DNA of 64,000 nt, taken from positions 43,237 to 107,236 of the forward strand of contig CAYRSA010000001.1 of the NCBI GenBank assembly GCA_964426845.1, written 5' to 3'. Positions 18,479-49,800 of this stretch are shown one piece after another. Within the stretch, counting starts at the first letter, position 1. The number at the start of each line of letters is the position of its first letter. The translations under genes were made by a program, and so were the position numbers. Source of the DNA: an uncultured Candidatus Saccharibacteria bacterium. GTDB lineage: Bacteria > Patescibacteriota > Saccharimonadia > Saccharimonadales > JAGQNJ01. The notes under the pieces were generated by a model that searched no databases, had not been told where the DNA came from, and saw only the letters and a list, made by a program, of their open reading frames with translations.

Positions 18479-18883
18479 TTAGCCTTGGACTGACTGGTGA
18501 TTGAGAAGGTCAAGCTGTACACCTTCGCCAGAAGATAGTCTACTTATAACTTCAGTTCGAACACGCTCTCGACGCTCTGCCTCGTGAGCCCCATAGAGCA
18601 TGGTCACACCACTAGCAGTCAGCAAACCGCCTGCAACTACACAATCTTCTATAAGCTCGACAGTAGATTCGTACAAATGCGCCTCAGTATCTAGTTTGTC
18701 AGCCGCCAACCACACGGCTCCGGTTAGCAGCATAGTGGCTCCAGGCACTACAGCACCGCATCCAAGCCCTTGCATAACGCGTTTGACCCACTTATTCTGC
18801 TTTGCTGACTTTTCCAGGTCTGCCCGAGAATCTAGAGCCAGCTGTTCGTAACCAAATCGGTTGATCATATTAGTATTATACAT
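18479..18883 (-). CDS. hypothetical membrane protein (134 aa) upstream of the atp operon
   Basis: two hydrophobic segments; at the position usually held by atpI but no recognisable similarity. Confidence 0.5.
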   Translation of the reverse strand: MYNTNMINRFGYEQLALDSRADLEKSAKQNKWVKRVMQGLGCGAVVPGATMLLTGAVWLAADKLDTEAHLYESTVELIEDCVVAGGLLTASGVTMLYGAHEAERRERVRTEVISRLSSGEGVQLDLLNHQSVQG

Positions 18884-23808: not shown

Positions 23809-24261
23809 ATGAAAAAGAAGAAGCATACGCCCGGCCGAATCCTAAATCGCCGCGCCAAGTTCGATTATCAGCTTGGTGATAGCTTTTTGGTGGGCATAAT
23901 TCTGACTGGTCGCGAGACCAAGTCTTTGCGCCAGGGACATGCTCATCTACGCGGAGCTTACGTGACTGTTAAGGATAATGAACTGTGGCTAACCAACGCT
24001 ACTATTGCCAGCGGTCGTACTTTTGTCATTCCGGAGGAAGAGCAAACCCGCCCCCGTAAACTACTAGCTCACCGCAAAGAAATTGACACCATGATCGCTG
24101 CCCGCCAGCAGGGCAACACCCTTGTGCCAACAGAGTTTTTGACGGGTTCTAGGCATATCAAACTTCGAGTCTCCATCGGCCGCGGTAAAAAGCGCTATGA
24201 TAAGCGCCAAACTATCAAAGAGCGTGACCAGGCTAGGGAAAGCGCCCGGTTGGTACGTTAG
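23809..24261 (+). CDS. smpB: SsrA-binding protein
   Basis: 150 aa; NRRAKFDY...LLAHRKEI...GRGKKRYDKRQ typical SmpB. Confidence 0.93.
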   Translation: MKKKKHTPGRILNRRAKFDYQLGDSFLVGIILTGRETKSLRQGHAHLRGAYVTVKDNELWLTNATIASGRTFVIPEEEQTRPRKLLAHRKEIDTMIAARQQGNTLVPTEFLTGSRHIKLRVSIGRGKKRYDKRQTIKERDQARESARLVR

Positions 24262-24336: not shown

Positions 24337-24690
24337 ATGACCAAAAACTTTGAAGACACTATACTCTCACTACTGCGTGGCATGGACCAGCGTATGGACG
24401 GAATGGCAGGAGATATAGCCGAATTGAAGACTGGCTACAACCACCTCGACAAAAAAATAGACTTGGTAATCGATATTTTGGCCGAACACACCGCAAAGCT
24501 AAAAGAGCACGACGAGCGTTTTTCTCAGATAGACGAGCGTTTTTCTCAGATAGACAAACGATTCGATGAGCACGACAGAATGTTCCGGCAAATTATTGAT
24601 GGTGTCATACCAGAGATGGAGACACGTACTAAACATAGTATGAAGCTCAAAAACCACGAGCGACGCATCACTGCACTCGAGTCAGCCTAA
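24337..24690 (+). CDS. coiled-coil protein with heptad DERFSQI repeats
   Basis: 117 aa; contains a 21-bp tandem duplication (24511-24552); TATACT 6 nt before ATG. Confidence 0.55.
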   Translation: MTKNFEDTILSLLRGMDQRMDGMAGDIAELKTGYNHLDKKIDLVIDILAEHTAKLKEHDERFSQIDERFSQIDKRFDEHDRMFRQIIDGVIPEMETRTKHSMKLKNHERRITALESA

Positions 24691-24739
24691 ACTCTTCGTT
24701 GCCAACAACAGGGGAGTCCGCTATAATTTCAAAGCATAT

Positions 24740-24814
24740 TCCCGGGTAGCTCAATGGTGGAGCAAGAAGCTGTTAACTTCGAGGTTGCCGGTTCGAGTCC
24801 GGCCCCGGGAGCCA
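24740..24814 (+). tRNA. tRNA-Asn (anticodon GTT), CCA encoded
   Basis: 75 nt; acceptor TCCCGGG/CCCGGGA, D arm GCTC/GAGC, anticodon loop CTGTTAA, T arm GCCGG-TTCGAGT-CCGGC; TATAAT promoter box at 24722. Confidence 0.92.
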
Positions 24815-24860
24815 AGCATAAGCATTTTCTTTACATTTCTTAATGCGATATAATTAGCGT

Positions 24861-25271
24861 ATGGCTGAACGAATTATCGGGATAGGTGAAACGAGTTCTT
24901 TTCGCTACTTTGCAATTCAGCCGCCCCTCGAAGATGTCGAAGCTAAAGCTCTTATTGACACACTGCAGCTTCCGTTCAGGGCTTACTGGCCGATGAACTT
25001 TACGCAAGAGCGAAGGGCTGACAGCCCGGACCATACCGAATTTGGAATTGACGTTGGAGCCGCTATAGATTGGATTGGGCTAGAAGAAGTCGATGGTGGA
25101 GCCGTTGAGATAGCTCAACAAATAGCATCTATCCTCGCCCAGCAAGGAGACGATGTTGTTGTTCTTGAAGATATTGTATCTACGAGCTGGGAAGCTCCCA
25201 TTTTTGGGCAAGATGCTGACCACCAAAGGGAGCTTGCGGAATACTTTAGGTCGCATCCAGAGCAAGAATAG
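24861..25271 (+). CDS. cassette 1: hypothetical acidic protein (136 aa)
   Basis: TATAAT (24849-24854) 6 nt before ATG; no domain recognised. Confidence 0.6.
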   Translation: MAERIIGIGETSSFRYFAIQPPLEDVEAKALIDTLQLPFRAYWPMNFTQERRADSPDHTEFGIDVGAAIDWIGLEEVDGGAVEIAQQIASILAQQGDDVVVLEDIVSTSWEAPIFGQDADHQRELAEYFRSHPEQE

Positions 25272-25349
25272 TCCGAGCATCCATCACCACCGAGAGCCAA
25301 GCATAATCGGAATGAGGCCTGAGAGGGTCTCTTTTGTTATGATTAGTGT
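25272..25349 (+). repeat. junction J1 (short form)
   Basis: left arm TCCGAGCATCCATCACCACCGAGA; core GAGAGCCAAGCATAATC 25292-25308; hairpin GAGGCC-TGAGAG-GGTCTC plus TTTTG; TATGAT 25338-25343. Confidence 0.8.
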
Positions 25350-26222
25350 ATGCGAGACTATGTAGCTGAAGTTAAGGCAGCCTTTCCTGAGCTAAAGATT
25401 AAGAAAACAAAGCTCTATGAAAATGGCTGGGATTGTGTAGTCGTAGAAGTGAATAACAGTCTCATGTTCCGCGTGCCAAGAAAAAAACGAGACATGACCA
25501 ACGACTGGAAACTCTTGGACTTCCTATCGAAGAAGGCCCTATCCGTACCCGGTGGCAATGTTATCTCGGCGGACGGTGTCATTACTGGTTATGAGAAGCT
25601 CCCAGGGGAAGAACTAAGGCCAAAAGTCCTCGAGAACCTAGACCCAGCTTTGAAAGGTGATGCCCTAAATCAGATAGCTGATTTCCTGACAGAACTGCAC
25701 GGTCTGGATATCAAAGAAGTTGAGGCTCTCGGCTACCAGCCAAAGGCTCCAGATTATTTGTTCGACAAGGTGCGGGGATGGGTTGATAAGTACCTGCCGC
25801 AACGCTTAAGTGGGCCAGAAATGGAACGGGTTGAGAAGTTTATGCATGAATGGGAAGAAAACATCGGTGGCTACACAGCTTGTTTAGTTCATTGCGACTT
25901 TTCATCAGACCATATCTTGTACAACAAGGAAGACAGCAACATACGATTAGGCTTTATTGACTTCTCGGACAGCATCATCCACGACCCAGCCTGGGACTTC
26001 GCCAAGCTATTCGACTACGGTGAGAAAGCATTCAAGCACATACTTGGCAGGTACAAAACAGCAAACAACAAGCACGGGATTGACAAACGAGCAAGAATCT
26101 ACAGAGAACGAACCTATGTATGGCACTTAGTTGACCCCTTCTTAGACCTGCCGTACTTACCCTTTGACTTTGAAACGGCATTGAAAGATTTCAGAGCTAA
26201 CATGATGTCAGAGAAAGATTAG
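25350..26222 (+). CDS. cassette 2: aminoglycoside/small-molecule phosphotransferase (APH family kinase)
   Basis: 290 aa; catalytic HCDFSSDHILY and IDFSD motifs of the APH/choline-kinase fold. Confidence 0.8.
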   Translation: MRDYVAEVKAAFPELKIKKTKLYENGWDCVVVEVNNSLMFRVPRKKRDMTNDWKLLDFLSKKALSVPGGNVISADGVITGYEKLPGEELRPKVLENLDPALKGDALNQIADFLTELHGLDIKEVEALGYQPKAPDYLFDKVRGWVDKYLPQRLSGPEMERVEKFMHEWEENIGGYTACLVHCDFSSDHILYNKEDSNIRLGFIDFSDSIIHDPAWDFAKLFDYGEKAFKHILGRYKTANNKHGIDKRARIYRERTYVWHLVDPFLDLPYLPFDFETALKDFRANMMSEKD

Positions 26223-26314
26223 TTCTAACGTCCGTCACTACCGAGACCCAAGCATAAGCGGGATGAGAAAGAGGCAGGAATACATCTTTTGATATCTTGG
26301 GATATACTGTAAAT
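26223..26314 (+). repeat. junction J2 (short form, unique right arm)
   Basis: left arm AGTTCTAACGTCCGTCACTACCGAGA; core GAGACCCAAGCATAAGC 26243-26259; TATACT 26303-26308. Confidence 0.75.
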
Positions 26315-26812
26315 GTGATTAAAATTGAATTTGTTCCTGAATCTGAAAGTTTTACTCCAGCAGCTAGTGAATATGCTGATATATGGAACGCTGATGGTTC
26401 TCGAGTGGTAGAAGCAATACAAACCGTGACTGGCTTACCCCTGGAAGAAGAAGTCCAAGCAGTGGTCTTTGAGGGGATAAGCCGCTCACACCCTCTTAAG
26501 TTCAGAGCTAGTTATGATAGAGAAACTAAAGCAGCTACTATTGTGCACGAGTTGTTGCACAGGGTTTGTGTTGCTAATCATCTTAAATTACCAGTGGATG
26601 ACGAAGACCGAGGCATAGCTGCTCACAAACAGATTGACCTGGCACTCTATGACATTTGGCGCAGTCTATATGGTCAAGAGTTTGCAGATAGACAGGTAGC
26701 AATTGAGTCTGAGAGAGCAAACGGTAAATACCGTGAAGCTTGGGGTTGGGCACTATCAATGTCAGAGCAAGAACGACAAGCTAAATTTGCTTCATTAATT
26801 CCCAAAGAATAG
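26315..26812 (+). CDS. cassette 3: hypothetical protein with HExxH-like motif (VHELLH)
   Basis: ORF track starts at TTG 26297; GTG 26315 lies exactly 6 nt after TATACT, as in the other cassettes. Confidence 0.55.
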   Translation: MIKIEFVPESESFTPAASEYADIWNADGSRVVEAIQTVTGLPLEEEVQAVVFEGISRSHPLKFRASYDRETKAATIVHELLHRVCVANHLKLPVDDEDRGIAAHKQIDLALYDIWRSLYGQEFADRQVAIESERANGKYREAWGWALSMSEQERQAKFASLIPKE

Positions 26813-26955
26813 TTCTATCTTCCATTGTTTTGGACAGAACCATAATCTGACCATAGTACTTGGTACGAAGTACGTCAGCTATAGGGAGCCAAGCATAAGC
26901 ACTTTGAAGGTGTTAAAACCTAGACATATATCACGTTTTGTGGTATTTTTAGTTT
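26813..26955 (+). repeat. junction J3 (long form)
   Basis: left arm AGTTCTATCTTCCATTG; insert CCATAATCTGACCATAGTACTTGGTACGAAGTACGTCAGCTA from 26840; exact core 26884-26900; right arm CCTAGACA..TTTTGTGGTATTTT; TATTTT 26944-26949. Confidence 0.85.
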
Positions 26956-27459
26956 GTGTCAGTTCGTGTTACTACTGAAGAAGCCCGAGAGTATGTAGCC
27001 TCCAAATTACATGGCCTCGAAACTCCTCGAATGATGAGGTTTCCGACAATGGGCAATCATCTTGCATCTGCAATCATTTGGGCTGCCTGTGGTGAGGAAG
27101 GACAAAGACACGATATTGGGTTTTATTACACTTCCTTCAGGATTATTAGCCCAAGACCGTTCGAACAAAACTTGCAAAGAAGTCAACTTTGGCTAGACGC
27201 CCTGGAGAACTTTGAAGAATATGAATGGGGAGCGCGTGAGAGGCTTAGAAATGGTGAAAGTGACAATATTTTAGACGGTCTCGATTGGGAGACGGCTGCT
27301 CAGTGGAAGTTTGATGATTGGCCAGTCGATATTTTCGCGGTTAACTCGCTTGGAGAGGCAGCAAAAGTTTCACACATGGGCGGATTTGTAGACTTAGATG
27401 ATACAAGCTGGCCTATCGTTCAGTCTTCAATTCACTATGGGATAGCAGAGCAGTTCTAA
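26956..27459 (+). CDS. cassette 4: hypothetical protein (167 aa)
   Basis: GTG start 6 nt after TATTTT; no domain recognised; its TAA stop is the second stop of the AGTTCTAA motif. Confidence 0.55.
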   Translation: MSVRVTTEEAREYVASKLHGLETPRMMRFPTMGNHLASAIIWAACGEEGQRHDIGFYYTSFRIISPRPFEQNLQRSQLWLDALENFEEYEWGARERLRNGESDNILDGLDWETAAQWKFDDWPVDIFAVNSLGEAAKVSHMGGFVDLDDTSWPIVQSSIHYGIAEQF

Positions 27460-27576
27460 TTTCTTTCAGCTCTGCCATTGCCATAATCTGACCATAGTAC
27501 TTGGTACGAAGTACGTCAGCTAGAGGGGCCAAGCATAAGCACTTTGAAAGAGGTGCTTTTTTGTTAGTATTAGAGC
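27460..27576 (+). repeat. junction J4 (long form)
   Basis: insert from 27481; core with 1-nt deletion GGGGCCAAGCATAAGC 27525-27540; hairpin AGCAC-TTTGAAAGAG-GTGCT plus TTTTTTG; TAGTAT 27565-27570. Confidence 0.85.
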
Positions 27577-28224
27577 ATGAAAGTTGCGATTACAGGAGCG
27601 AACGGAAAAGTTGCACAGGCATTGATTGGCCAGCTTGACCCTGAACGATTTGAAATTACTAAACTAGACATCCCAGACCACGACTCAGCTAATCTGGATG
27701 CCTTAATTGCTGATACCAAGGGTCATGACGCACTTATTCATCTGGCCTGGAAAGACCTAGACGTAGGCTCTGTTGACCCAATCAATGGGGTTATGTACGA
27801 GAACGCCTACAGAGCGGCTGTGGCAAACGGAATTAGTCTTGTTATGATGGGTAGCTCCAACCATGCTAGAAGCCACGAGCAGCGTGAAGCTGATGGTCGG
27901 ATACGATACACAGGCCAAGCCGAATTAGCTAATAACCTCTATGGGGTGGAGAAGCAGAAGATGGAGGCAATGGGGAGGCTGTTTGCTGCAACAGAAGGGT
28001 TGTCAGTGCTCTGTGTGCGTATCGGCAATATTAATCCAGAAGATGAACCACGCCCCGACGTGCCGACCAGGTGGATGAGTCACAGAGACTGGGGAAACTT
28101 TGCAAGTCTTGCTTTAGAGTACGCTTTTCCTGAAGGGCATTTCGAGATAGCTTATGGCGTAAGCGACCAACCTATCTTCGACTGGACTAATTCATTTGGT
28201 TACGAGCCACAAGACAAAGCTTAG
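27577..28224 (+). CDS. cassette 5: NAD(P)-binding Rossmann protein (epimerase/dehydratase-like, short)
   Basis: 215 aa; MKVAITGANGKVAQAL glycine-rich dinucleotide motif. Confidence 0.65.
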   Translation: MKVAITGANGKVAQALIGQLDPERFEITKLDIPDHDSANLDALIADTKGHDALIHLAWKDLDVGSVDPINGVMYENAYRAAVANGISLVMMGSSNHARSHEQREADGRIRYTGQAELANNLYGVEKQKMEAMGRLFAATEGLSVLCVRIGNINPEDEPRPDVPTRWMSHRDWGNFASLALEYAFPEGHFEIAYGVSDQPIFDWTNSFGYEPQDKA

Positions 28225-28353
28225 CTCTAACTTCCATCACACCCGACATCGCCATAATCTGTCCGTAATACTTAGTACGAAGTACGTCAGCTAGAGGAAG
28301 CCAAGCATAAGCGGAATGAGACCTGAGAGGGTCTCTTTTGTTATGATTAAGAA
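28225..28353 (+). repeat. junction J5 (long form)
   Basis: left arm AGCTCTAACTTCCATCACACCCGACA; insert from 28251; core GGAAGCCAAGCATAAGC 28296-28312; hairpin GAGACC-TGAGAG-GGTCTC plus TTTTG; TATGAT 6 nt before ATG. Confidence 0.85.
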
Positions 28354-28839
28354 ATGGGTGTTAAGAACTATCTGATTGAAGGTGTCTCAGGAACAGGCAA
28401 AAGCTCGGTTTGCCAGGAACTTAGGCGTCGTGGCTACGATGTGGTGGATGGCGATAAAGAGCTGGCTTATCAAGGTGACCCTGAAACAGGCGAAAAGACA
28501 GAAGGGCATACTCACCAACACCACATCTGGAATGAAGCTAAAGTCCGTAAAATTGCTTCAGACCACACAAAGTCAGTTACTTACTTTTGTGGTGGTTCAA
28601 GAAACTTCAGCAGGTTCTTAGACGTGTTCGACAGGATATACATCCTGGATGTTGACGAAGCAACCCTAAACGACCGACTAGACAGTAGGGATGGATGGGG
28701 TAAAGAAAAATCTGAACGTGAATTAGTATTAAGGCTTCATGAGAGCAAGGAAGACTTGCCACAAGACGGTATAGAGATAGATGCCACGGAGCCACTGTCA
28801 AAAGTGGTGGATAAAATCATTAGCTCATCAGAAGCCTAG
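28354..28839 (+). CDS. cassette 6: P-loop kinase-like protein
   Basis: 161 aa; GVSGTGKSS Walker A at the N-terminus. Confidence 0.6.
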   Translation: MGVKNYLIEGVSGTGKSSVCQELRRRGYDVVDGDKELAYQGDPETGEKTEGHTHQHHIWNEAKVRKIASDHTKSVTYFCGGSRNFSRFLDVFDRIYILDVDEATLNDRLDSRDGWGKEKSERELVLRLHESKEDLPQDGIEIDATEPLSKVVDKIISSSEA

Positions 28840-28907
28840 TTATAACATCCCCCACTACTAAGAGCCACAACCTAGACAAATTTCACTTTTTGTGGTATTT
28901 TAGTGAT
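28840..28907 (+). repeat. junction J6 (degenerate short form)
   Basis: left arm AGTTATAACATCCCCCACTACTAAGA; only GAGCCA of the core retained, then CCTAGACAAATTTCACTTTTTGTGGTATTTT (same right arm as J3); TATTTT 28896-28901. Confidence 0.7.
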
Positions 28908-29453
28908 ATGAATGTCCGTAGAGAAACCGACCCGCAATCACCAACGTCTCCCATACTTGCTAGGTGGTTGGCATATGATGATGAATATTGCGAGCACGAT
29001 ATTACGCTAGAAACTGCTGGCGGCCGACATGGCATAGGCATTTGGAAAGAAGAAGGTGAGATAGTTGTAGCTACCGGAAACCTTTGGGTTGATGAAAAAA
29101 TGCGTCAAACTGGCGTCGGTACTAGGCTACTTAAAGCCGGTCTTGTATTGGCCAAGAGCCACGGAGCCACAATATCAAGCTCTGATGTCTACTCGCCCCA
29201 TGCATTAAAAATTAGGCAAAATATATTTGGTGAAAACAATCTTAGATTTTGGGACGCATCCAACTTCAATATAGGTGAGCTACCTATTTCAGTAAGTCAA
29301 GCAATTATGTCTCTTGAGCGGGCTGCCCAGAGTGCCGAAGAGTATAGAACAAGCGAAGAGGGATTTATCGTTAGGTCTGTACTTGCCGATGTAGATATGT
29401 GCGACTGGGAGCAACCTATAGAAGTGAACGCTCCTGACCTGCCAACGGACTAA
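28908..29453 (+). CDS. cassette 7: GNAT-like N-acetyltransferase
   Basis: ORF track starts at TTG 28890; ATG 28908 is 6 nt after TATTTT; acetyl-CoA loop-like MRQTGVGTRLLKAGLVLAKSHGA. Confidence 0.55.
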   Translation: MNVRRETDPQSPTSPILARWLAYDDEYCEHDITLETAGGRHGIGIWKEEGEIVVATGNLWVDEKMRQTGVGTRLLKAGLVLAKSHGATISSSDVYSPHALKIRQNIFGENNLRFWDASNFNIGELPISVSQAIMSLERAAQSAEEYRTSEEGFIVRSVLADVDMCDWEQPIEVNAPDLPTD

Positions 29454-29594
29454 TACTCTTTTTCCATCACTTCCGAGAGCGCCATAATTTGACCGTAGTA
29501 CTTGGTACGAAGCAAGTCAGCTAGAGGGAGCCAAGCATAAGCGATATGAGACCTGAGAAGGTCTCTTTTGTTGTTTGTGGGGTATACTATCTGT
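29454..29594 (+). repeat. junction J7 (long form)
   Basis: left arm TACTCTTTTTCCATCACTTCCGAGA; insert from 29481; exact core 29526-29542; hairpin GAGACC-TGAGAA-GGTCTC plus TTTTG; TATACT 29583-29588. Confidence 0.85.
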
Positions 29595-30284
29595 ATGAAA
29601 CTTGCAGGTGAAACAGCGGTTATAGTCGGTGGAAGCCAAGGAATCGGGCGGGCGCTGGCCGAAGGACTGCTCCACGAAGGTGCCAATGTTGTAATCGCTA
29701 GTCGAACCCAAGAAACAGTAGAAAAGACTGCTGAAGAAATTGGTGCAGAGGCTTTTGTTGTAGACGTACGTGAAGAACAGGACTTAAGAGACCTTGCTGC
29801 TTTTGCAATCGAGACTTTTGGTGGAATTAACTTATGGGTCAATAGTGCGGGTCAATTCAAGAAGTTTCCCAAGGAAGACCTCCTTGACATGGAAAGAGCT
29901 CATGAGATGTTTGACGTAAACTTTTTTGGTGCTGTACTTGGCTCAAGAACAGCATTGCTCAATATGGAAGACGGTGCATTAATTAACTTACTATCCAGCG
30001 CAGCACTCGATGCCACTCGGTCTGTTGGAGCTAAGTTATATGCATCAAGCAAGTGGGCACTGCGGGGCTATGTAGATGCATTGCGTGGTGAAAATCCAGA
30101 CAGTCCAGTAAGAATACTTTCTGTTTATCCAGGTGGCACGAAGTCACACCTACATGACGAAGCTCTGCCCGATGAATTTGCAAATTTTATGGAGCCAGAG
30201 CATGTTGTTGAGAAAGTTATCGCAAACTTGCTACTCGAAGAGCCAGAACTAGATTTAGTTATTAAGCGACCGTCAGTAAGCTAG
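29595..30284 (+). CDS. cassette 8: short-chain dehydrogenase/reductase (SDR)
   Basis: ORF track starts at TTG 29568; ATG 29595 (MKLAGETAVIVGGSQGIGRA) is 6 nt after TATACT; YASSK catalytic motif. Confidence 0.85.
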   Translation: MKLAGETAVIVGGSQGIGRALAEGLLHEGANVVIASRTQETVEKTAEEIGAEAFVVDVREEQDLRDLAAFAIETFGGINLWVNSAGQFKKFPKEDLLDMERAHEMFDVNFFGAVLGSRTALLNMEDGALINLLSSAALDATRSVGAKLYASSKWALRGYVDALRGENPDSPVRILSVYPGGTKSHLHDEALPDEFANFMEPEHVVEKVIANLLLEEPELDLVIKRPSVS

Positions 30285-30402
30285 GCCTACCCCAAGCAAT
30301 CTCCATAACCTGACCGTAATACCTGGTAAGAAGTACGTCAGCTAGAGGGAGCCAAGCATAAGCGCTTTGAATAAGGTGCTTTTTTGTTAGTATTAGGCCA
30401 GT
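30285..30402 (+). repeat. junction J8 (long form, most diverged)
   Basis: left part GCCTACCCCAAGCAATCTCCATAACC; insert from 30302; exact core 30347-30363; hairpin AGCGC-TTTGAATAAG-GTGCT (A-T, G-C, C-G, G.U, C-G pairs) plus TTTTTTG; TAGTAT 9 nt before ATG. Confidence 0.8.
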
Positions 30403-31635
30403 ATGTCAACAGTCTCTTTTATTCGTTCTCCATGTGAGGTCCTGGTACTTGATGAGGTCAAGACTGGGTCTCGATTTCTTGAACTTCCACCTCCCGAATA
30501 CACAGACAGGGAATATGAAGAGGTCTTCCGAGATGCACAAGCAAGGCTAGGGCTTGAAGATTTAGAGCCTGTTCATGAAGGAGGGAAAACAAAACTTGTA
30601 GCCCCTGACGGATACAAGTTTCGGATAACTGGAGCTTTTACCCTCTGGCCAGACGGTAATGATATTTCCTGGGGCTATGGACCTCCTACGGACAGTTACG
30701 AAGAATGGCGCAGACAAAATCAGGGTAGCTTGGCTAGGTATGAGGCTGAGGGGTTAAGTCCTGAAGAAGCTGAGAAACGGGTTGCTGACGGAGAATGGGA
30801 GACAAGTACATATGGCATTCCGAGTATTGAATATTATGAAGGCCCAAGTCTGACATTTTCTTTTGATGACGTGGAGTGGGGAGGAATTGTGCCAACAGAC
30901 AGAGAAAGCAGACACTCTTCTGATGATGGGCCGCCCACTGTTAAGGTACGACTAAGTCATTATAGGGAAACTTGGTTAGAGCAAGCGCGTAGGCATATAA
31001 AACTGCCTAATAGCGAAAATGACAGATTGCTTGCAACCCACCAATACGGACAGCCCGGAATAATTCCTTGCTGGAAGGGTGGACACAGTGATGGTGATAT
31101 AGAAAATATCGCGATTGAACTTGTACCAATCGGTGAAGACGATGGAGACAAAGAATTGCCTATGCTGAAAAGATTGTGGGTACCCGAGAATGTACGATGG
31201 ACTTTATATGAAGACTTCCCCGACTTAATAGACCAAGATGGCGACGAAGCAAGCCGCACGGACATGGGAGGTGCAATGCGCATGTTTGGGGAAGTTATGG
31301 GGCTTCTTGGTGGTTCAGACCAGAATATGTTTGACCAATTAAGCGCGGAAAGCAGATTAGCAGTCGTCGACCACCCTATGCTTGCTCATATGGATACTGG
31401 GAAGTTAGCAGAAGCCGTTGAGGAGCTTATTCAAATCACAAATGAGCAAGAACCAGGGAAAGATAGAGAGCGAGAGAGAGAAGAGGAAAATGCTAAAAAG
31501 ATGGAAGCAAAACGGAAACGACTCGTAGTTATAACAGACTTGGACGAAAGTATTCATTCGGTTGCTCGAAGAATAGGGGCAGACGACACTTGGCTCGAAG
31601 ACCACGCTCGCTATGTCAATAGCTTTGACTGGTAA
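30403..31635 (+). CDS. cassette 9: hypothetical acidic protein (410 aa)
   Basis: long ORF, no domain recognised; C-terminal charged EREREEENAKKMEAKRKR stretch. Confidence 0.6.
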   Translation: MSTVSFIRSPCEVLVLDEVKTGSRFLELPPPEYTDREYEEVFRDAQARLGLEDLEPVHEGGKTKLVAPDGYKFRITGAFTLWPDGNDISWGYGPPTDSYEEWRRQNQGSLARYEAEGLSPEEAEKRVADGEWETSTYGIPSIEYYEGPSLTFSFDDVEWGGIVPTDRESRHSSDDGPPTVKVRLSHYRETWLEQARRHIKLPNSENDRLLATHQYGQPGIIPCWKGGHSDGDIENIAIELVPIGEDDGDKELPMLKRLWVPENVRWTLYEDFPDLIDQDGDEASRTDMGGAMRMFGEVMGLLGGSDQNMFDQLSAESRLAVVDHPMLAHMDTGKLAEAVEELIQITNEQEPGKDREREREEENAKKMEAKRKRLVVITDLDESIHSVARRIGADDTWLEDHARYVNSFDW

Positions 31636-31771
31636 TGTGAAGTTCTAGCTTCCACAGCCTTCGCCATGGCCATAATCTGACCATAATACTTAGTACGAAG
31701 TACGTCAGCTAGAGGGAGCCAAGCGTAAGCGTTTTGAGACCTGGAAGGGTCTCTTTTGTTATACTAGGACA
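31636..31771 (+). repeat. junction J9 (long form)
   Basis: left arm GAAGTTCTAGCTTCCACAGCC; insert from 31669; core GGGAGCCAAGCGTAAGC 31714-31730; hairpin GAGACC-TGGAAG-GGTCTC plus TTTTG; TATACT 31760-31765. Confidence 0.85.
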
Positions 31772-32218
31772 ATGGATTTACACGAACTTGCAAAAGAGTA
31801 TCTAGGCAGTGTCAAGCACATGCAACTTGCTACCGTCAAGAATGGTCAGCCATGGATTTGTACCGTCTATTTTGTGGCTGATGACGATTACAATTTTTAT
31901 TGGACGTCGGGCCGAGACAAGCAACACTCGGTTGAAATAAAATCTGATCCAAGAGCCGCGGCTACCGTAGTTCTAGACACTGATAAAAAACGAGCTCTAC
32001 AGATGGCGGGTAGTGCCGAGGAAGTCAGTGATGAGGAGTTAGAGCGCGTACACCAGCTATACCAGTCAAAATTTGGCTCAAAAGACTATGATTTAGAGGA
32101 AATGAAACAGCACAAGGCCGTCGGCCGAGCCTATTGGAAGTTTAAGCCTTCTGTAGCCATGTTTTGGGACGAGGTTAACTTCCCAGACACGCCAAAACAA
32201 CGCTTGAATCTGGTATAA
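31772..32218 (+). CDS. cassette 10: pyridoxamine 5'-phosphate oxidase-family (FMN-binding split barrel) protein
   Basis: 148 aa; N-terminal HMQLATVKNGQPWICTVYF pattern typical of PNPOx/general-stress-26-like proteins. Confidence 0.7.
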   Translation: MDLHELAKEYLGSVKHMQLATVKNGQPWICTVYFVADDDYNFYWTSGRDKQHSVEIKSDPRAAATVVLDTDKKRALQMAGSAEEVSDEELERVHQLYQSKFGSKDYDLEEMKQHKAVGRAYWKFKPSVAMFWDEVNFPDTPKQRLNLV

Positions 32219-32490: not shown

Positions 32491-32685
32491 AGCAATCAGC
32501 AGGGAAGCAGGGCGTCACAACATGGCGCTCTGTTTTTGTCTTTTGTAGACAAGCACCCACTTTTGTGATATTTTCCATTATATGCCCTTAAGAATTGATG
32601 AGACTACGCCTTTTGACTTGGTACGAGAGCTGTCTCCAACCCGGCACGCCGCTACCGCTGCTAGAGATAGACCCCTAGACACCGA

Positions 32686-32928
32686 TTAGATTATCGGCAG
32701 GTCCTCGACAGGCTGATCGAGTATTTTAGCTAGTAGCTCGATCTGTTGAAACTTACAGTATTTAATTGGAGCTCCGGCGGCGTCATAAATCCGGTAGTAG
32801 TGGGTGAAGGTGACTGTTTCACCTTTGAAGTTCTTGGCCTGTGTGGGCTTTTCGATTCGCCTAATTGTCCAGCCGGCTGGCTGGTCGGCTAGAATGCGCT
32901 TGATCTTGGCGTAGTGGTTGAAAGGCAT
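32686..32928 (-). CDS. hypothetical protein (80 aa)
   Basis: ORF track extends to 33123, but ATG 32928 (MPFNHYAKIKRIL...) lies 7 nt after TATACT and avoids overlap with the divergent gene. Confidence 0.5.
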   Translation of the reverse strand: MPFNHYAKIKRILADQPAGWTIRRIEKPTQAKNFKGETVTFTHYYRIYDAAGAPIKYCKFQQIELLAKILDQPVEDLPII

Positions 32929-33002
32929 TAATAAGAGTATATCAATACATAAGTCCAGAAGCCCCGTCTCTCGACAAAACACTGTTATTATGGTATCCTT
33001 TA

Positions 33003-33770
33003 ATGATGACAGAACATCAGCCAAGACTACCGGATAATGCCTGGTTCCCTGGGGAGCAGGTCGCCAGTTGGGAAGGCCGCCGCTTTGGCTACCGAGCCCT
33101 TTTTGAAGCCATCGTCGATCCATCTACCTTTAAAGAGATTTGTAATTCAGCCGGACAGGACGAGCTGATTGAATTATTTGAGCCTACTGAGAACGATAGT
33201 CTATCGATCACCATGTTAGGCGAATACGACGAACCTACTGGTGAACCGGTTGTACTAAGCATTGAAAACCCAGCCACAATCTTAACACATGGCTCGCGTT
33301 TCATACTTGATGCTACTGCCTCCAGCGAACCTTTCGCTTACACCTGCACTTTATACGGAGAAAAGCCTTTGAGACTTGATTACTTCGCTCTGGGTGATCG
33401 GGAGCGTCCTGTCAGATTCATAGAAACTCTAGCTATCAAAGATGGAGTCGAGTGCGATGTCTATGAGCTCGACGGCGACGATACACAGGATTTGGCTATA
33501 GTTCGGGTCGCCAAGGGCTCATCTACACCACGCCAACGTGTGCTACAGGGCGACTTAACGATTGAAGGCCATGTATCAGGCGAAGGCGAATTAGTTATCG
33601 CTAGAGCCAACGGCAACAAAGAAGTATACCCTTTCAGAGATGATTTACGTACACGGCCAGTGCAGGTAGATATCGGTGACACCATGCGCTGGACAGCAAT
33701 TGGAGATCTCGTTTTCTATGAAATATGCCAGCCGCCCTACGCCGAAGGCCGCTATCAAGACCTAGATTAA
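33003..33770 (+). CDS. hypothetical protein, C-terminal cupin-like barrel
   Basis: 255 aa; C-terminal GDLTIEGHVSGEGELVIA...GDTMRWTAIGDLVFYEI suggests a beta-barrel; weak call. Confidence 0.5.
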   Translation: MMTEHQPRLPDNAWFPGEQVASWEGRRFGYRALFEAIVDPSTFKEICNSAGQDELIELFEPTENDSLSITMLGEYDEPTGEPVVLSIENPATILTHGSRFILDATASSEPFAYTCTLYGEKPLRLDYFALGDRERPVRFIETLAIKDGVECDVYELDGDDTQDLAIVRVAKGSSTPRQRVLQGDLTIEGHVSGEGELVIARANGNKEVYPFRDDLRTRPVQVDIGDTMRWTAIGDLVFYEICQPPYAEGRYQDLD

Positions 33771-35547: not shown

Positions 35548-35999
35548 CAATAACCCCAAACCTGTGGTTCGACGGCAATGCCAAGGAAGCGGTGGACTTT
35601 TACGTCTCGGTCTTCCCGGACAGCAAGATAACCTCGACCGAATACTACCCCGAGACGCAAGAGGAGGGTCTAGCCGACTTTCAGAAAAGCCTGGCCGGCA
35701 AAGTGCTGACCATTGAGTTCGTGCTATCCGGCAACCCCTTTGTCGCCATCAACGCCGGTCCAGAGTTCAAATTCAACGAATCGGTTTCCTTCTCGGTGCC
35801 TTGCAAAGACCAAGCAGAAATCGACTACTTCTGGGAAAAACTATCCAAAGTACCCGAGTCCGAGCAGTGTGGCTGGTGCAAAGATCAATTTGGCCTGAGT
35901 TGGCAAATCGTGCCGGCCAATATGAGCGAGCTAATGAAGCGCCCTGATGCTTTCAAGAAGATGATGGAGATGCACAAGCTGATTATTGCTGACTTCTAG
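35544..35999 (+). CDS. VOC/glyoxalase-superfamily protein (PhnB-like, 3-demethylubiquinone-9 3-methyltransferase-domain family)
   Basis: 151 aa; MTITPNLWFDGNAKEAVDFYVSVFPDSKI and CGWCKDQFGLSWQI are signatures of this family. Confidence 0.85.
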   Translation: MTITPNLWFDGNAKEAVDFYVSVFPDSKITSTEYYPETQEEGLADFQKSLAGKVLTIEFVLSGNPFVAINAGPEFKFNESVSFSVPCKDQAEIDYFWEKLSKVPESEQCGWCKDQFGLSWQIVPANMSELMKRPDAFKKMMEMHKLIIADF

Positions 36000-36864
36000 A
36001 GTTTTTGTAGTCGTTAAAGCGCACTTCAGTAGGCGTAATCTTCAGGACTACGTAGTCGCCGGCCGCAATTTTTGTTATCGGCGGAATATCAACTTCGCCT
36101 CTGTATAAGTGAGGTCTGACTATCTTCTCCAACATCATTTGGGCTTTGGGCAATTCTGATTCAACTGTAGCCATACCCTGCAATTGGACAGTTTGGCGGG
36201 CGCCTTCATCAACAACCGTCAGGGCCACGCCAGGGTGTACTAGAATATTTTGAGCTTTCCGGGTGGTGCTCTTGGTAGCTACATAAATGTCTCCGTTGTC
36301 GGATAGGGCATAGTAGACGGCCGCGCCGGTGATATTACCTTCGCGGTCGGCACTGGATAGCACGGCCAAGTTGTGCGAAGCCAAGAACACGCCGGCCGAC
36401 TTGTCGATACCCACGGGTGTCGCCGAGATTTCAGCTGGGTTGGGGCTGCCAATTGCCGTGCCGCCAACTTCCTCTAAGCGTCGTTCCTCCATATAGGAAA
36501 CGAATTTATCAGCGCATTTACGGTTTACAAACAGGATTGTGTAGTCACCAAGCCTAGTATGGACGGTGACGCCCGCAAAACGGCCTTGGGTATTGAAAGA
36601 CACGCCGCTCAGCACGTTGTAGGAGATCTCATCATTAATTCTGAAGAAAGGCTTGTGTTCTAGATAAAGCATTCTCAGGTTAGTAGCCACAAACATAGCT
36701 GACTCCCGACCACGACGACCGTATATTACACCGCCAATATGTTCGTCAGGATGAATCATGGTGGGCAGATGTTTGGTCTCGCCCTTCATAAGGCCATAAT
36801 TGGACATGCCGGCGGCCACCAACTCTTTACGAACCCGTTCTTCGTGGGCAGTCAATGGTTTCAT
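35983..36864 (-). CDS. bacterial PH-domain plus PNPOx-like fusion protein
   Basis: 293 aa; N-terminal YokE-like PH region, C-terminal FMN-binding split-barrel-like region. Confidence 0.55.
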   Translation of the reverse strand: MKPLTAHEERVRKELVAAGMSNYGLMKGETKHLPTMIHPDEHIGGVIYGRRGRESAMFVATNLRMLYLEHKPFFRINDEISYNVLSGVSFNTQGRFAGVTVHTRLGDYTILFVNRKCADKFVSYMEERRLEEVGGTAIGSPNPAEISATPVGIDKSAGVFLASHNLAVLSSADREGNITGAAVYYALSDNGDIYVATKSTTRKAQNILVHPGVALTVVDEGARQTVQLQGMATVESELPKAQMMLEKIVRPHLYRGEVDIPPITKIAAGDYVVLKITPTEVRFNDYKNSRSQQ

Positions 36865-48714: not shown

Positions 48715-49800
48715 ATGATAAATTACGGAAAACCTCCATTTTTACCAGTAAATAATCTCGACGTTTCAAGCTACTACCGCGAATTAGCTGATGCTTCATA
48801 TGCACTCGGCATGCTCCAGGTGGCGCACGGTAAAATAAGCAACTCAGACCACCTTATCCGTCCTCTACTCACAAGAGAAGCTTCGCTCAGTTCTAAAATA
48901 GAAGGAACCGTTACTGATTCAAAGGATGTGTTTATACTTGATGCAACAGGCAAGGCACCTAAGCAAGACACTGTCGTCGTAGCAAACTACCGTCGTGCCA
49001 TGAAGATAGCATCATCGTTTAAAGACGATCGTAAAATTACTCAGACAAAGTTACGCCAACTTCACACTGTCCTGCTTCGCAACACTCCATACACAGGAAC
49101 GCTAGGAAAGTATCGAGAAGTTGACGCATGGATTGGCAAGGATAAAAATACCCCCATTGATAAAGCATTATATGTAGCGCCGCATCCTACTCAGGTTACC
49201 CCTTATATGGACAACCTGCTTAAGTACTTGAATAATTATGATGAGCATCCGCTGATTAAAACAGCGGTATTCCATTACCAGTTCGAAGCTGTGCACCCTT
49301 TTGAGGATGGTAACGGCAGAATTGGCCGCATGCTGGTGCCGGCATTCTTGCACTATCTAGGCGCCCTTTCAGCTCCTGTCCTTTATACAAGTGAATACTT
49401 TGAGAAAGAAGCAGAGACCTATCGTAAAAAACTCAACGATGTTGATAAGACTGGGGACATAACTCCTTGGATAAAGTTCTTTCTTGAATCAATAAAGAAT
49501 CAGTGCGATATCTCTATAGCGTTGGTAGACAGGATTCTGAAACTTAACGCCGAACTTCATGAGACCTATGAACACTCGCAGTCACCAAATGTCGTCCGTG
49601 TAATTGATTACTTTTTCGAGTATCCAATATTCACAGTGCCCGAGATGGTAAAACACCTAGGCATAAACCGTATTACGGCCGTCAATATTCTGAAGAAACT
49701 TGAAAGCGATGGAGTTATTGAGCTACTCGCAAACCTGAAGGGCCCCAAAAATGCCAAGCTTTATTCATTCCCAAAACTGGTAGAAATTATCGTTTCTTAG
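48715..49800 (+). CDS. Fic-family (AMPylation/filamentation) protein with C-terminal wHTH
   Basis: HPFEDGNGRIGR Fic motif; ORF track starts at GTG 48685, first ATG is 48715; start uncertain. Confidence 0.85.
   Translation: MINYGKPPFLPVNNLDVSSYYRELADASYALGMLQVAHGKISNSDHLIRPLLTREASLSSKIEGTVTDSKDVFILDATGKAPKQDTVVVANYRRAMKIASSFKDDRKITQTKLRQLHTVLLRNTPYTGTLGKYREVDAWIGKDKNTPIDKALYVAPHPTQVTPYMDNLLKYLNNYDEHPLIKTAVFHYQFEAVHPFEDGNGRIGRMLVPAFLHYLGALSAPVLYTSEYFEKEAETYRKKLNDVDKTGDITPWIKFFLESIKNQCDISIALVDRILKLNAELHETYEHSQSPNVVRVIDYFFEYPIFTVPEMVKHLGINRITAVNILKKLESDGVIELLANLKGPKNAKLYSFPKLVEIIVS

What the first reader, a model, noticed from the sequence alone, without database searches (positions are those of the whole stretch)
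24849..31774. Nearly every cassette is a self-contained expression unit: terminator hairpin, T-tract merging into a TG-extended -10 box, and a start codon exactly 6 nt later with no Shine-Dalgarno
Seen in sequence. The -10-like hexamers and their spacing to the start codon are:
- TATAAT-N6-ATG 24861
- TATGAT-N6-ATG 25350
- TATACT-N6-GTG 26315
- TATTTT-N6-GTG 26956
- TAGTAT-N6-ATG 27577
- TATGAT-N6-ATG 28354
- TATTTT-N6-ATG 28908
- TATACT-N6-ATG 29595
- TAGTAT-N9-ATG 30403
- TATACT-N6-ATG 31772

Most are preceded by TGn. No purine-rich SD fits in the 6 nt. In three cases the pattern predicts a start different from the ORF-track start (26315, 28908, 29595), and the predicted N-termini are more canonical, for example MKLAGETAVIVGGSQGIG for the SDR. 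The hairpin plus T-run immediately upstream would terminate the preceding cassette; it is absent before cassette 1, and cassette 3 has no clear one.

Established knowledge: transcription normally starts about 7 nt after the -10 hexamer, so these mRNAs would begin at or next to the start codon (leaderless).

Inference: unlike integron cassettes, which depend on Pc, these cassettes are insulated and self-promoted.
Basis: partly seen in the sequence, partly recalled or inferred. Interest (0 to 1): 0.55.

Follow-up and report, generated by a model that had tools for sequence, protein, structure and literature searches.

The report
Self-promoted leaderless gene cassettes in Saccharibacteria
Ten small genes lined up behind a tRNA-Asn gene in a Saccharibacteria genome each appear to carry their own promoter placed so that the mRNA begins at the start codon, and most are separated by terminators; this start-codon layout is the organism's normal habit, but the same cassette design recurs in many other Saccharibacteria.

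Summary

Two corrections:
- Clear terminator hairpins precede only 6 of the 10 cassettes, not "nearly every" one.
- The leaderless layout is not special to the cassettes. It marks about 38% of genes elsewhere in the window. In 80 other Saccharibacteria loci, -10-like hexamers peak sharply 6-7 nt before start codons. Those sites also show TG at -15/-14, a weak TTG 17 nt upstream, and T(-1)/A(+1).

The array hangs on tRNA-Asn. Each junction repeats a 13-nt core, GCCAAGCATAAGC, made of the tRNA's last 4 nt plus its trailer. I found the same core in 146 non-redundant junctions from other Saccharibacteria MAGs and metagenomes. It is usually followed by a hairpin with compensatory changes and a T-run (134 of 170 junction segments), and in 78 of 146 junctions by a -10 box 5-8 nt (mostly 6) before an ORF start.

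The self-promoted, partly insulated, leaderless reading is therefore well supported in silico, but no transcript ends are mapped. No integrase was found. Ten full-text literature searches found no description of the arrays or of leaderless expression in Saccharibacteria.

The parts
24699..24727 (+). Promoter-like site TTGCCA-17-TATAAT in front of tRNA-Asn
   Evidence: 11 of 12 consensus matches
24740..24814 (+). tRNA-Asn (GTT). Its last 4 nt (GCCA) begin the 13-nt core that is repeated at every junction.
24811..24823 (+). Core copy 0, GCCAAGCATAAGC (tRNA 3' end plus trailer). No hairpin follows it.
24849..25271 (+). Cassette 1 unit: -10 TATAAT 24849-24854, N6, ATG 24861, ORF to 25271 (136 aa, no Pfam match)
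25296..25308 (+). Core copy 1 (GCCAAGCATAATC)
25314..25337 (+). Terminator-like hairpin GAGGCC-TGAGAG-GGTCTC plus TTTTGT (class A)
   Evidence: (-16.7 kcal/mol, z -3.25)
25338..26222 (+). Cassette 2 unit: TGt-TATGAT 25338-25343, N6, ATG 25350, ORF to 26222 (APH-family phosphotransferase)
26247..26259 (+). Core copy 2 (CCCAAGCATAAGC), followed by a degenerate class A remnant with no clear terminator
26303..26812 (+). Cassette 3 unit: TATACT 26303-26308, N6, GTG 26315, ORF to 26812 (no Pfam match). The ORF-track TTG at 26297 lies upstream of the -10 box.
26811..26887 (+). Long 3' junction element (starts at the stop codon; pseudo-tRNA-3'-end-like; imperfect hairpin CTGAC-CATA-GTACTT...AAGTAC-GTCAG)
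   Evidence: (D2)
26888..26900 (+). Core copy 3
26921..27459 (+). Cassette 4 unit: -35 TAGACA 26921-26926, 17-nt spacer, TGg-TATTTT 26944-26949, N6, GTG 26956, ORF to 27459 (no Pfam match). No terminator upstream.
27452..27527 (+). Long 3' junction element
   Evidence: D2
27528..27540 (+). Core copy 4
27537..27564 (+). Terminator-like hairpin AAGCACTTT-GAAA-GAGGTGCTT plus TTTTGT (class B). The stem includes the right end of the core.
   Evidence: (-11.7 kcal/mol, z -2.4)
27565..28224 (+). Cassette 5 unit: TGt-TAGTAT, N6, ATG 27577, ORF to 28224 (NAD-dependent epimerase-like). Homologous cassettes occur in L089 and L037.
28223..28299 (+). Long 3' junction element
   Evidence: D2
28300..28312 (+). 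Core copy 5
28318..28341 (+). Terminator-like hairpin GAGACC-TGAGAG-GGTCTC plus TTTTGT (class A)
   Evidence: (-17.3 kcal/mol, z -4.2)
28342..28839 (+). Cassette 6 unit: TGt-TATGAT, N6, ATG 28354, ORF to 28839 (AAA_18 kinase-like). A homologous cassette in L084 has TATTAT-N6-ATG.
28863..28867 (+). Degenerate junction: only AGCCA is left of the core. Relative to junction 3, the rest of the core and the remnant hairpin are deleted.
28873..29453 (+). Cassette 7 unit: -35 TAGACA 28873-28878, 17-nt spacer, TGg-TATTTT 28896-28901, N6, ATG 28908, ORF to 29453 (GNAT). The ORF-track TTG at 28890 lies inside the promoter module.
29453..29529 (+). Long 3' junction element
   Evidence: D2
29530..29542 (+). 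Core copy 6
29548..29571 (+). Terminator-like hairpin GAGACC-TGAGAA-GGTCTC plus TTTTGTT (class A)
   Evidence: (-23.1 kcal/mol, z -4.8)
29583..30284 (+). Cassette 8 unit: TATACT 29583-29588, N6, ATG 29595, ORF to 30284 (short-chain dehydrogenase). The start is fixed by the L187 homologue, which has an in-frame TAA 9 nt upstream of the aligned ATG.
30274..30350 (+). Long 3' junction element
   Evidence: D2
30351..30363 (+). Core copy 7
30360..30387 (+). Terminator-like hairpin AAGCGCTTT-GAAT-AAGGTGCTT plus TTTTGT (class B)
   Evidence: (-10.3 kcal/mol, canonical shape, z only -0.7)
30388..31635 (+). Cassette 9 unit: TGt-TAGTAT 30388-30393, N9 (3-nt insertion relative to junction 4), ATG 30403, ORF to 31635 (410 aa, no Pfam match)
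31641..31717 (+). Long 3' junction element
   Evidence: D2
31718..31730 (+). Core copy 8 (GCCAAGCGTAAGC), the last one
31736..31759 (+). Terminator-like hairpin GAGACC-TGGAAG-GGTCTC plus TTTTGT (class A)
   Evidence: (-14.1 kcal/mol, z -1.9)
31760..32218 (+). Unit 10: TGt-TATACT, N6, ATG 31772, ORF to 32218 (PNPOx-like). No core follows it, so it may be the resident gene distal to the insertion site rather than a cassette.

Best explanation
The window comes from a Candidatus Saccharibacteria genome. Behind tRNA-Asn lies an array of nine or ten one-gene cassettes, all on the + strand.

**Anatomy (shown)**
- Each junction repeats a 13-nt core, GCCAAGCATAAGC. It consists of the last 4 nt of the tRNA plus 9 nt of its trailer.
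- Each junction core is preceded by a diverged tRNA-3'-end-like element that begins at the stop codon of the gene before it.

**How it most likely works**
1. At most junctions a stem-loop follows the core and partly includes it, ending in a U-run. The structure and its conservation are shown. The inferred function is to stop transcripts arriving from the tRNA or from the preceding cassette.
2. The T-run leads, within 0 to about 20 nt, into an extended -10 promoter (TGnTAnnnT, with a weak -35 or none). The sequence, spacing and phylum-wide statistics are shown. The inferred step is that RNA polymerase starts 7 nt after the hexamer, on the A of the ATG.
3. The mRNA therefore has no 5' UTR and no Shine-Dalgarno, and is translated as a leaderless message. 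This follows from established knowledge of leaderless initiation in Actinobacteria and Deinococcus.
4. Each cassette is thus expressed independently of its position in the array. This differs from integron cassettes, which depend on Pc.

**Scope**
The leaderless layout is not peculiar to the cassettes. It is how this organism, and Saccharibacteria generally, start a large share of their transcription units. Cassettes score 10 of 10 because each is its own unit. Insulation is incomplete, since three internal junctions lack a terminator.
For: **Coordinates and motifs:**

**Core**
- Nine copies in the window, all on the + strand and all inside the array, against 0.11 expected.
- All 33 tRNAs that abut the core in other loci are tRNA-Asn.

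**Terminators in the window**
Six junctions meet the hairpin plus T-run criteria. Folding energies run from -10 to -23 kcal/mol.

**Terminators across junctions elsewhere**
- 134 of 170 junction segments have a hairpin plus T-run, against 35 of 170 in shuffles. There are 92 distinct stems.
- On a 49-sequence alignment, an 11-bp helix is 98% paired. Shuffled partners give 88.8% and slid registers 36-64%.
- Five pairs show changes on both sides (50 cells), and 0 of 500 shuffles reach the observed values.
- Many pairs are G-U, which fits an RNA structure on the sense strand.

**Promoters at junctions elsewhere**
- Hexamer-to-start spacing peaks at N6 (57) and N7 (17) over a background of about 4.
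- 78 of 146 junctions have a -10 box 5-8 nt before the ORF start. Of those, 56 have TGn and 69 start with ATG.

**Host-wide habit**
- Searches show the layout throughout the window and the 80 loci; 21 of 55 window genes outside the array have it.
- The position matrix of 224 N6 sites shows TG, TTG-17 and T(-1)/A(+1).
- ATG use is 85% at N6 sites, against 73% for strong-SD starts and 43% for other candidate starts.
- A TSS centred 7 bp after the -10 element is the bacterial norm (PMC12641261).
- A Pribnow box 6-8 nt before the start codon defines the leaderless 'group C' genomes (PMC6028130).

**The promoter belongs to the cassette**
Homologues of cassettes 5, 6 and 8 in other arrays keep a similar -10 region and the same start position, while the hairpin type differs.
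Against: - No experimental TSS, 3'-end or N-terminal data exist for this organism.
- -10-like hexamers are short and AT-rich. The loose pattern is not enriched in raw counts.
- The ten sites in the window derive from about five repeated modules, so they are not ten independent observations.
- Three internal junctions, and the junction after the tRNA, lack a terminator. Read-through transcripts are therefore likely there.
- One cassette has N9 spacing.
- In the wider sample, 10 junctions have only an SD-like signal and 30 have neither signal.
- The hairpin abuts the recombination core, so it could also, or instead, serve recombination.
Confidence: 0.72

Rival explanations
1. The cassettes are transcribed mainly as read-through polycistronic RNA from the tRNA-Asn promoter, or from one upstream promoter. 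On this view the TAnnnT boxes are AT-rich translation-initiation enhancers or chance, not promoters.
For: - A strong promoter-like site lies before the tRNA (24699-24727).
- No terminator follows the tRNA in this window, and three internal junctions also lack one.
- The loose pattern is not enriched overall.
Against: - The spacing peak is one nucleotide sharp, at N6/N7.
- TG at -15/-14, TTG 17 nt upstream and T(-1)/A(+1) are promoter features, not ribosome-binding-site features.
- Covarying hairpin plus U-run elements sit between cassettes.
- Other genes in the window do have normal GGAG SD sites, so the organism has a standard ribosome-binding site to use.
Confidence: 0.1
2. The conserved hairpin next to the core is primarily part of the recombination site, as a folded or protein-bound att structure. 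Any termination is incidental.
For: - The hairpin abuts and partly includes the 13-nt core.
- Its sequence type is shared within an array and differs between arrays, whichever gene follows it.
Against: - A T-run follows it almost invariably. Alignment columns 32-35 are invariant T.
- Many stem pairs are G-U, which are stable in RNA and become C-A mismatches on the other strand.
- The same element follows the genuine tRNA-Asn, where a terminator is expected.
- The two roles do not exclude each other.
Confidence: 0.15
3. The region is not an array of mobile cassettes. It is an ordinary host gene cluster whose intergenic spacers were colonised by a repeated terminator-promoter element of the REP or MITE kind.
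For: - No integrase was found in or near the arrays.
- The junction sequences within one array are homogenised.
Against: - The core occurs only in the array and only behind tRNA-Asn.
- The closest relatives (SmpB 81-86% identical) have the tRNA but no array, and synteny stops at the tRNA.
- The same genes occur in arrays with different neighbours in other samples.
- Unit sizes have a median of 696 bp, and stop codons are embedded in the 3' element. Both are cassette-like.
Confidence: 0.08

Closest known systems
Leaderless transcription units of 'group C' bacteria (Actinobacteria, Deinococcus-Thermus) as defined for GeneMarkS-2 (PMC6028130)
   Same: - The Pribnow box lies 6-8 nt before the start codon, with no SD.
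- Other genes in the same window carry normal SD sites.
- A quarter to a half of transcripts are affected.
- There is a strong ATG preference.
   Different: - The phylum is Saccharibacteria/Patescibacteria. I found no published statement of this habit for that phylum in ten full-text searches.
- Here the layout is also built into mobile-looking cassettes.
- Transcription starts are not mapped.
Integron gene-cassette arrays (IntI, attI, Pc, attC)
   Same: - Tandem, co-oriented, mostly single-ORF units of a few hundred bp.
- Each unit is bounded by a repeated site that begins at or next to the stop codon.
- The cargo includes APH, GNAT and SDR-type genes.
- Presence or absence varies between relatives.
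   Different: - No IntI gene is adjacent.
- The insertion point is the 3' end and trailer of tRNA-Asn.
- The repeated site is a 13-nt core plus a tRNA-3'-end-like element, not a demonstrated attC fold.
- Most cassettes carry their own promoter and many a terminator, instead of depending on Pc.
- A minority of integron cassettes do carry their own promoters (stated from my own knowledge).
tRNA-gene-targeting integrative elements and islands built by repeated insertion, for example tycheposon-type islands (named from my own knowledge, not tested here)
   Same: - Each unit is flanked by a repeat of the tRNA 3' end.
- The arrays grow at one tRNA gene.
- Synteny breaks at the tRNA.
   Different: - The units are single genes with a median of about 700 bp.
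- They carry no integrase or mobility genes.
- The junction module doubles as a terminator-promoter.
Intrinsic (Rho-independent) terminators
   Same: A GC-containing stem of 7-11 bp, a short loop and a U-run. The A-rich 5' flank pairs with the U-run.
   Different: - The 5' half of the stem is partly made of the recombination core.
- The U-run merges into the TG of the next promoter.
- Termination activity has not been measured.

Membership tests
Leaderless sigma-70-type transcription unit ('group C' pattern) | -10 (Pribnow) hexamer 6-8 nt upstream of the start codon | tested here: met
   - 9 of 10 at N6 and 1 at N9.
- At 146 related junctions the spacing mode is N6.
Leaderless sigma-70-type transcription unit ('group C' pattern) | No Shine-Dalgarno sequence between promoter and start codon | tested here: met
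   The spacers read directly. The only AGGA lies 2 nt from the ATG at 31772.
Leaderless sigma-70-type transcription unit ('group C' pattern) | Genome-wide mixture: a promoter at fixed distance before first genes, and SD before the other genes | tested here: met
   - Spacing peak at N6/N7 in the window and in 80 loci.
- Position matrix with TG, TTG-17 and T(-1)/A(+1).
- GGAG-type SD sites before many other genes.
- The context analysis is noisy because the gene calls are crude.
Leaderless sigma-70-type transcription unit ('group C' pattern) | Primary 5' end of the mRNA mapped at, or within a few nt of, the start codon | not testable with these tools
   No transcript data are available. The TM7x RNA-seq TSS set (PMID 35975994) could not be read.
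Intrinsic terminator | Stable stem-loop immediately followed by a U-run | tested here: met
   - Six of nine internal junctions in the window.
- 134 of 170 related junction segments, against 35 of 170 in shuffles.
Intrinsic terminator | Structure maintained by compensatory changes among relatives | tested here: met
   98% of cells paired, 5 of 11 pairs with changes on both sides, and 0 of 500 shuffles as high.
Intrinsic terminator | Transcript 3' ends at the U-run | not testable with these tools
   Needs Term-seq or in vitro termination assays.
Integron | intI tyrosine-recombinase gene next to the array, with attI and Pc | tested here: not met
   - The upstream neighbours are a GH42-like gene, smpB and a coiled-coil ORF. 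The downstream neighbours are unknowns.
- Ten further window ORFs have no integrase domain.
- A crude HxxR...LGH...Y regex finds nothing in the 64 kb.
- No recurrent integrase lies near arrays elsewhere.
Integron | attC sites (imperfect palindromes R''-L''/L'-R' with extrahelical bases) at cassette 3' ends | tested here: inconclusive
   - The 3' elements are tRNA-3'-end-like.
- The long form contains an imperfect hairpin with a 4-nt bulge.
- No attC model was available to score it, and Rfam gave no match.
Integron | Cassettes generally promoterless and expressed from Pc | tested here: not met
   10 of 10 units in the window and 78 of 146 junctions elsewhere have their own -10 box at the start codon.
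tRNA-gene-targeting integrative element | Direct repeats of the tRNA 3' end flanking each inserted unit | tested here: met
   - Nine cores containing GCCA plus trailer.
- tRNA-3'-end-like sequences upstream of the cores.
- All adjoining tRNAs are tRNA-Asn.
tRNA-gene-targeting integrative element | Element encodes its own integrase | tested here: not met
   The cassettes hold single small genes with no integrase domain.
tRNA-gene-targeting integrative element | Presence or absence polymorphism at the same tRNA among relatives | tested here: met
   - L001, L066 and L002 have tRNA-Asn without the core or an array.
- L037, L039, L057, L024, L005 and L036 have arrays.

The most novel reading that the evidence does not exclude
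Saccharibacteria may carry a widespread gene-capture system that I found described nowhere. It resembles an integron in outcome but is built differently.
- Single-gene cassettes insert at the 3' end and trailer of tRNA-Asn through a 13-nt core.
- The recombinase is not encoded next to the array.
- Each cassette is a complete promoter-to-terminator leaderless unit.

Every captured gene would then be expressed wherever it sits in the array, an 'always-on' cassette store rather than a mostly silent one.
Probability: 0.45. Interest if true: 0.8.

Novelty: new variant of a known kind. Interest (0 to 1): 0.6.

Why it matters
**Gene expression in Saccharibacteria**
If transcript mapping confirms it, Saccharibacteria would start a large share of their messages at the start codon. 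This group of ultrasmall epibionts has few cultured members and little known about its gene expression. That would affect several things:
- Gene-start annotation. Gene callers pick upstream TTG codons that lie inside promoters.
- The design of expression constructs for the newly tractable strains.
- How their reduced translation apparatus is understood.

**Cassette arrays**
Position-independent expression changes the logic known from integrons. There would be no gradient from Pc and no silent reservoir. The cost of each cassette would be paid at once, and selection could act on it at once.

**A practical handle**
The compact terminator-promoter junction and the conserved 13-nt core also give a simple sequence pattern for finding such arrays in metagenomes.

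Tried and rejected
- **RNAalifold on a mixed 63-sequence junction alignment** gave no helix. Two hairpin classes sit in different registers. A one-class subset (A3), with the helix named explicitly, gave the covariation result.
- **Integrase search** found nothing, by four routes:
  - Pfam on 20 flanking and other window ORFs.
  - ORF lists inside the arrays of L037 and L039.
  - Clustering of 349 large ORFs near arrays, then Pfam on the recurrent ones. These were ABC transporter, Wzy, histidine kinase, beta-lactamase-like, acyltransferase, MFS, Fic, VanY and DUF3817.
  - A crude tyrosine-recombinase regex on the window.
- **Viral contigs scanned for the core** gave 72 hits. All lie in unrelated sequence, several sets being near-identical copies of one another, and none has the junction architecture. 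This gives no sign of a phage attP.
- **Exact-protein look-up of cassette 5** found no record.
- **Synteny with the closest relatives** could not fix the distal border of the array. Nothing downstream of tRNA-Asn matches.
- **Literature:** They found no description of the arrays or of leaderless expression in Saccharibacteria. The TM7x TSS paper (PMID 35975994) is not held. The GeneMarkS-2 supplement listing group C genomes is not held.
- **A folding-energy threshold alone** did not separate junctions from random windows. I replaced it with the hairpin plus T-run criterion.

Full report
**1. What is there**

The window is from a Candidatus Saccharibacteria genome. Nearly all 80 of the closest SmpB loci found in the genome collection are Saccharibacteria or Saccharimonadales MAGs, and the best three are 81-86% identical. 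The local gene order is as follows:
- smpB at 23809-24261 and a small coiled-coil ORF at 24337-24690.
- tRNA-Asn (GTT) at 24740-24814.
- Ten single-gene units on the + strand, running up to 32218.

Pfam places the units as follows:

| Family | Units |
|---|---|
| APH phosphotransferase | one |
| NAD-dependent epimerase-like | one |
| AAA_18 kinase-like | one |
| GNAT | one |
| short-chain dehydrogenase | one |
| PNPOx-like | one |
| no match | four |

Every junction but one repeats a 13-nt core, GCCAAGCATAAGC. Its first four bases are the 3' end (GCCA) of the tRNA. There are nine copies, all on the + strand and all inside the array, against 0.11 expected by chance. At the remaining junction (28863-28867) only AGCCA survives.

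Upstream of the junction cores lies a diverged element resembling a tRNA 3' end, and it begins at the stop codon of the preceding gene. Six junctions carry a long form of about 76 nt.

The array has lower G+C (0.445-0.47 against about 0.48-0.52 in the flanking regions) and a strong positive GC skew.

**2. The observation**

Nine have TAnnnT-N6-start and one has N9. Seven hexamers are preceded by TGn. No spacer holds a usable Shine-Dalgarno. The three ORF-track starts that differ (TTG at 26297, 28890 and 29568) all lie upstream of, or inside, the -10 box.

The strict pattern TGnTAnnnT-N6-ATG occurs 13 times in the window against 2.4 expected, and 0 of 100 shuffles reach 13. The loose pattern is not enriched in raw count. 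Its signal lies in coinciding with ORF starts.

The ten sites are not independent. The junctions fall into about five sequence classes:
- Class A, before cassettes 2, 6, 8 and 10: hairpin GAGACC...GGTCTC-TTTTGT.
- Class B, before cassettes 5 and 9: hairpin AAGCACTTT...GGTGCTT-TTTTGT.
- Class C, before cassettes 4 and 7: no hairpin, but TAGACA-17-TGgTATTTT.
- Two unique junctions.

Spacing is nevertheless kept where the sequence differs. At junction 7 an insertion displaces the box, and it is still N6.

One correction concerns the hairpins. A terminator-like hairpin plus T-run precedes six units only (-10 to -23 kcal/mol).

**3. The layout is the host's habit**

Outside the array the same -10-N6/7-ATG arrangement is common in the window. 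Examples are the starts at 18868, 19904, 24337, 33804, 35236, 36864, 38257, 40138, 44109, 48514, 58635, 60147 and 62186. Many other genes in the window have GGAG-type SD sites instead. With crude gene calls, 21 of 55 non-array genes show the layout.

I made a spacing histogram that uses every candidate start, so start choice cannot bias it:
- In the window outside the array, 16 hexamers lie at N6 against a background of about 2.
- In the 80 Saccharibacteria loci, 208 lie at N6 and 140 at N7, against a background of about 45.

A position matrix of 224 N6 sites shows promoter features at positions that were not used for selection:
- T and G at -15/-14 (G 59% against an 18% background).
- TTG at -35 to -33, which is 17 nt upstream of the hexamer.
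- T at -1 (62%) and A at +1.

These are the extended -10 element, a weak -35 element, and the pyrimidine-purine preference at transcription start sites. ATG use is 85% at N6 sites, against 73% for strong-SD starts and 43% for other candidates.

A TSS 7 bp after the -10 element is the bacterial norm (PMC12641261). A Pribnow box 6-8 nt before the start codon is what defines the leaderless 'group C' genomes, mainly Actinobacteria and Deinococcus-Thermus (PMC6028130). This organism behaves like a group C genome. The main text of that paper does not mention Saccharibacteria.

**4. The same cassette design elsewhere**

Other Saccharibacteria MAGs carry arrays with the same core behind tRNA-Asn. L037 has seven cores, and L039, L057, L024, L005 and L036 also have arrays. 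The nearest relatives (L001, L066, L002) have the tRNA but neither core nor array, and their synteny with the window stops at the tRNA. Several contigs break right at tRNA-Asn.

Findings from these loci:
- All 33 tRNAs that abut the core are tRNA-Asn.
- Core-to-core distances have a median of 696 bp and range from 287 to 7201 bp.
- The core also follows the genuine tRNA, together with the same kind of hairpin. The junction module is therefore a copy of the tRNA's own trailer and terminator.
- Of 170 junction segments, 134 have a hairpin plus T-run, against 35 in shuffles, with 92 distinct stems.

On a one-class alignment of 49 junctions, I counted an 11-bp helix:
- It is 98% paired, against 88.8% with shuffled partners and 36-64% in slid registers.
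- Five pairs change on both sides (50 cells), and 0 of 500 shuffles are as high.
- Many pairs are G-U, which points to an RNA structure on the sense strand.

Downstream, the spacing of -10-like hexamers to ORF starts peaks at N6 (57) and N7 (17) over a background of about 4. The 146 non-redundant junctions break down as follows:

| Class | Junctions |
|---|---|
| -10 box 5-8 nt before the ORF start | 78 (56 with TGn, 69 with ATG) |
| SD-like signal only | 10 |
| neither signal | 30 |
| no forward ORF start within 200 nt | 28 |

The box lies 23-163 nt after the core, with a median of 33 nt.

**5. Does the promoter belong to the cassette?**

Homologues of cassettes 5, 6 and 8 sit in other arrays with different neighbours. 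Their -10 regions and start positions resemble those in the window:
- Cassette 6: TTGTTATGATTAAGAAATG in the window against TTGTTATTATTAACTTATG in L084.
- Cassette 8: GGGGTATACT in the window against GGGGTATAAT in L187.

For cassettes 6 and 8 the hairpins differ, and hairpin type is shared within an array instead. So the promoter travels with the gene, and the hairpin goes with the junction or the host.

Evidence on the three re-predicted starts:
- In L187 an in-frame TAA lies 9 nt upstream of the ATG that aligns with 29595. This fixes the dehydrogenase start there.
- For 28908, the homologous promoter module before cassette 4 carries an in-frame TAG. The TTG at 28890 is therefore an accident of the promoter sequence.
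- 26315 rests on the pattern alone.

**6. Mechanism and rivals**

The best explanation (confidence 0.72) is that each unit is transcribed from its own extended -10 promoter and starts on the start codon. It is then translated without a leader. At most junctions it is separated from its neighbour by an intrinsic terminator whose U-run merges into the next promoter. The sequence anatomy, spacing statistics, promoter-type position features and hairpin covariation are shown. Initiation at the ATG, termination and leaderless translation are inferred.

The rivals are:
- Read-through polycistronic RNA, with the boxes acting as AT-rich translation signals (0.1).
- The hairpin serving mainly in recombination (0.15, not exclusive of the best explanation).
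- An ordinary gene cluster colonised by an intergenic repeat (0.08).

**7. Comparison with known systems, and novelty**

| Aspect | Closest known |
|---|---|
| Expression | leaderless group C transcription units and ordinary intrinsic terminators |
| Organisation | integron cassette arrays and tRNA-targeted islands |

The array fails the defining integron features I could test. There is no adjacent IntI, and the cassettes are not promoterless. Its units also lack the integrase expected of tRNA-targeting elements.

Ten full-text searches found no description of these arrays or of leaderless expression in Saccharibacteria. I rate the finding a new variant of known kinds, with interest 0.6. The array system as a whole could be more novel, as set out in the novel case.

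Noticed in passing
window 26811-26887, 27452-27527, 28223-28299, 29453-29529, 30274-30350, 31641-31717: The long junction element looks composite.
- It begins with a short-type tRNA-3'-end-like piece (TAGTTCTAACTTCCATCAC...). In other arrays that piece alone precedes the core.
- A possible degenerate core (GCCATAATC) follows.
- A second tRNA-3'-end-like piece (GGTACGAAGTACGTCAGCTAGAGGGA) then comes before the true core.

This could be an empty cassette or a two-part site.
   Followed up: partly
window minus strand, ATG at 26843-26841, 27484-27482, 28255-28253, 29485-29483, 30306-30304, 31673-31671: On the opposite strand the long junction element reads TATGGT/TACGGT-N6-ATG. This is the same leaderless signature, pointing back into the preceding gene. 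It opens 11-23 codon ORFs (for example MAMAELKEIRTALLSHSELKTER). It could be an antisense promoter or chance within a repeat.
   Followed up: partly
window 32503-32689: Just past the array there is a strong terminator-like hairpin (32503-32537). It is followed by a third copy of the class C promoter, TAGACA-17-TGaTATTTT (32546-32574). Seven nt later comes an ATG at 32582 that opens a 35-codon ORF, convergent with the gene at 32686-33123 on the minus strand.
   Followed up: partly
window 24511-24552: A perfect 21-nt tandem duplication (GACGAGCGTTTTTCTCAGATA x2) lies inside the coiled-coil ORF between smpB and tRNA-Asn. It gives a repeated DERFSQI heptad.
   Followed up: no
L003, L008, L018, L023, L035, L052, L064, L066 (contig ends): Many Saccharibacteria MAG contigs end at tRNA-Asn or within about 200 nt after it. 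This is what repeated or strain-variable arrays would do to short-read assemblies, so arrays are probably under-represented in MAGs.
   Followed up: no
L127:3722-4540, L057:6079-6963, window 48715-49800: - One ORF that follows an array core in another sample is a VanY-type D-Ala-D-Ala carboxypeptidase (L127).
- A Fic/DOC protein lies about 900 nt downstream of the last detected core in L057.
- The window also has a Fic/DOC gene far from the array.
   Followed up: no
window 31772-32218 and 35983-36864: The last unit of the array is PNPOx-like and has no core after it. A second PNPOx-domain gene lies 4 kb downstream on the other strand. The true distal border of the array is unresolved, because nothing downstream of the tRNA is syntenic with the closest relatives.
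   Followed up: partly
L083, L098, L102, L123, L126, L127, L172, L184 (junctions): One group of metagenome junctions shares a longer hairpin (ACTATGACCATCTAT-GAAA-ATAGATGGTC). It is followed by TATACT and a 5-codon ATG-CTT-AGA-ACT-AAC-TAA rather than a gene start. This could be a different junction module, a leader peptide or a small RNA.
   Followed up: no
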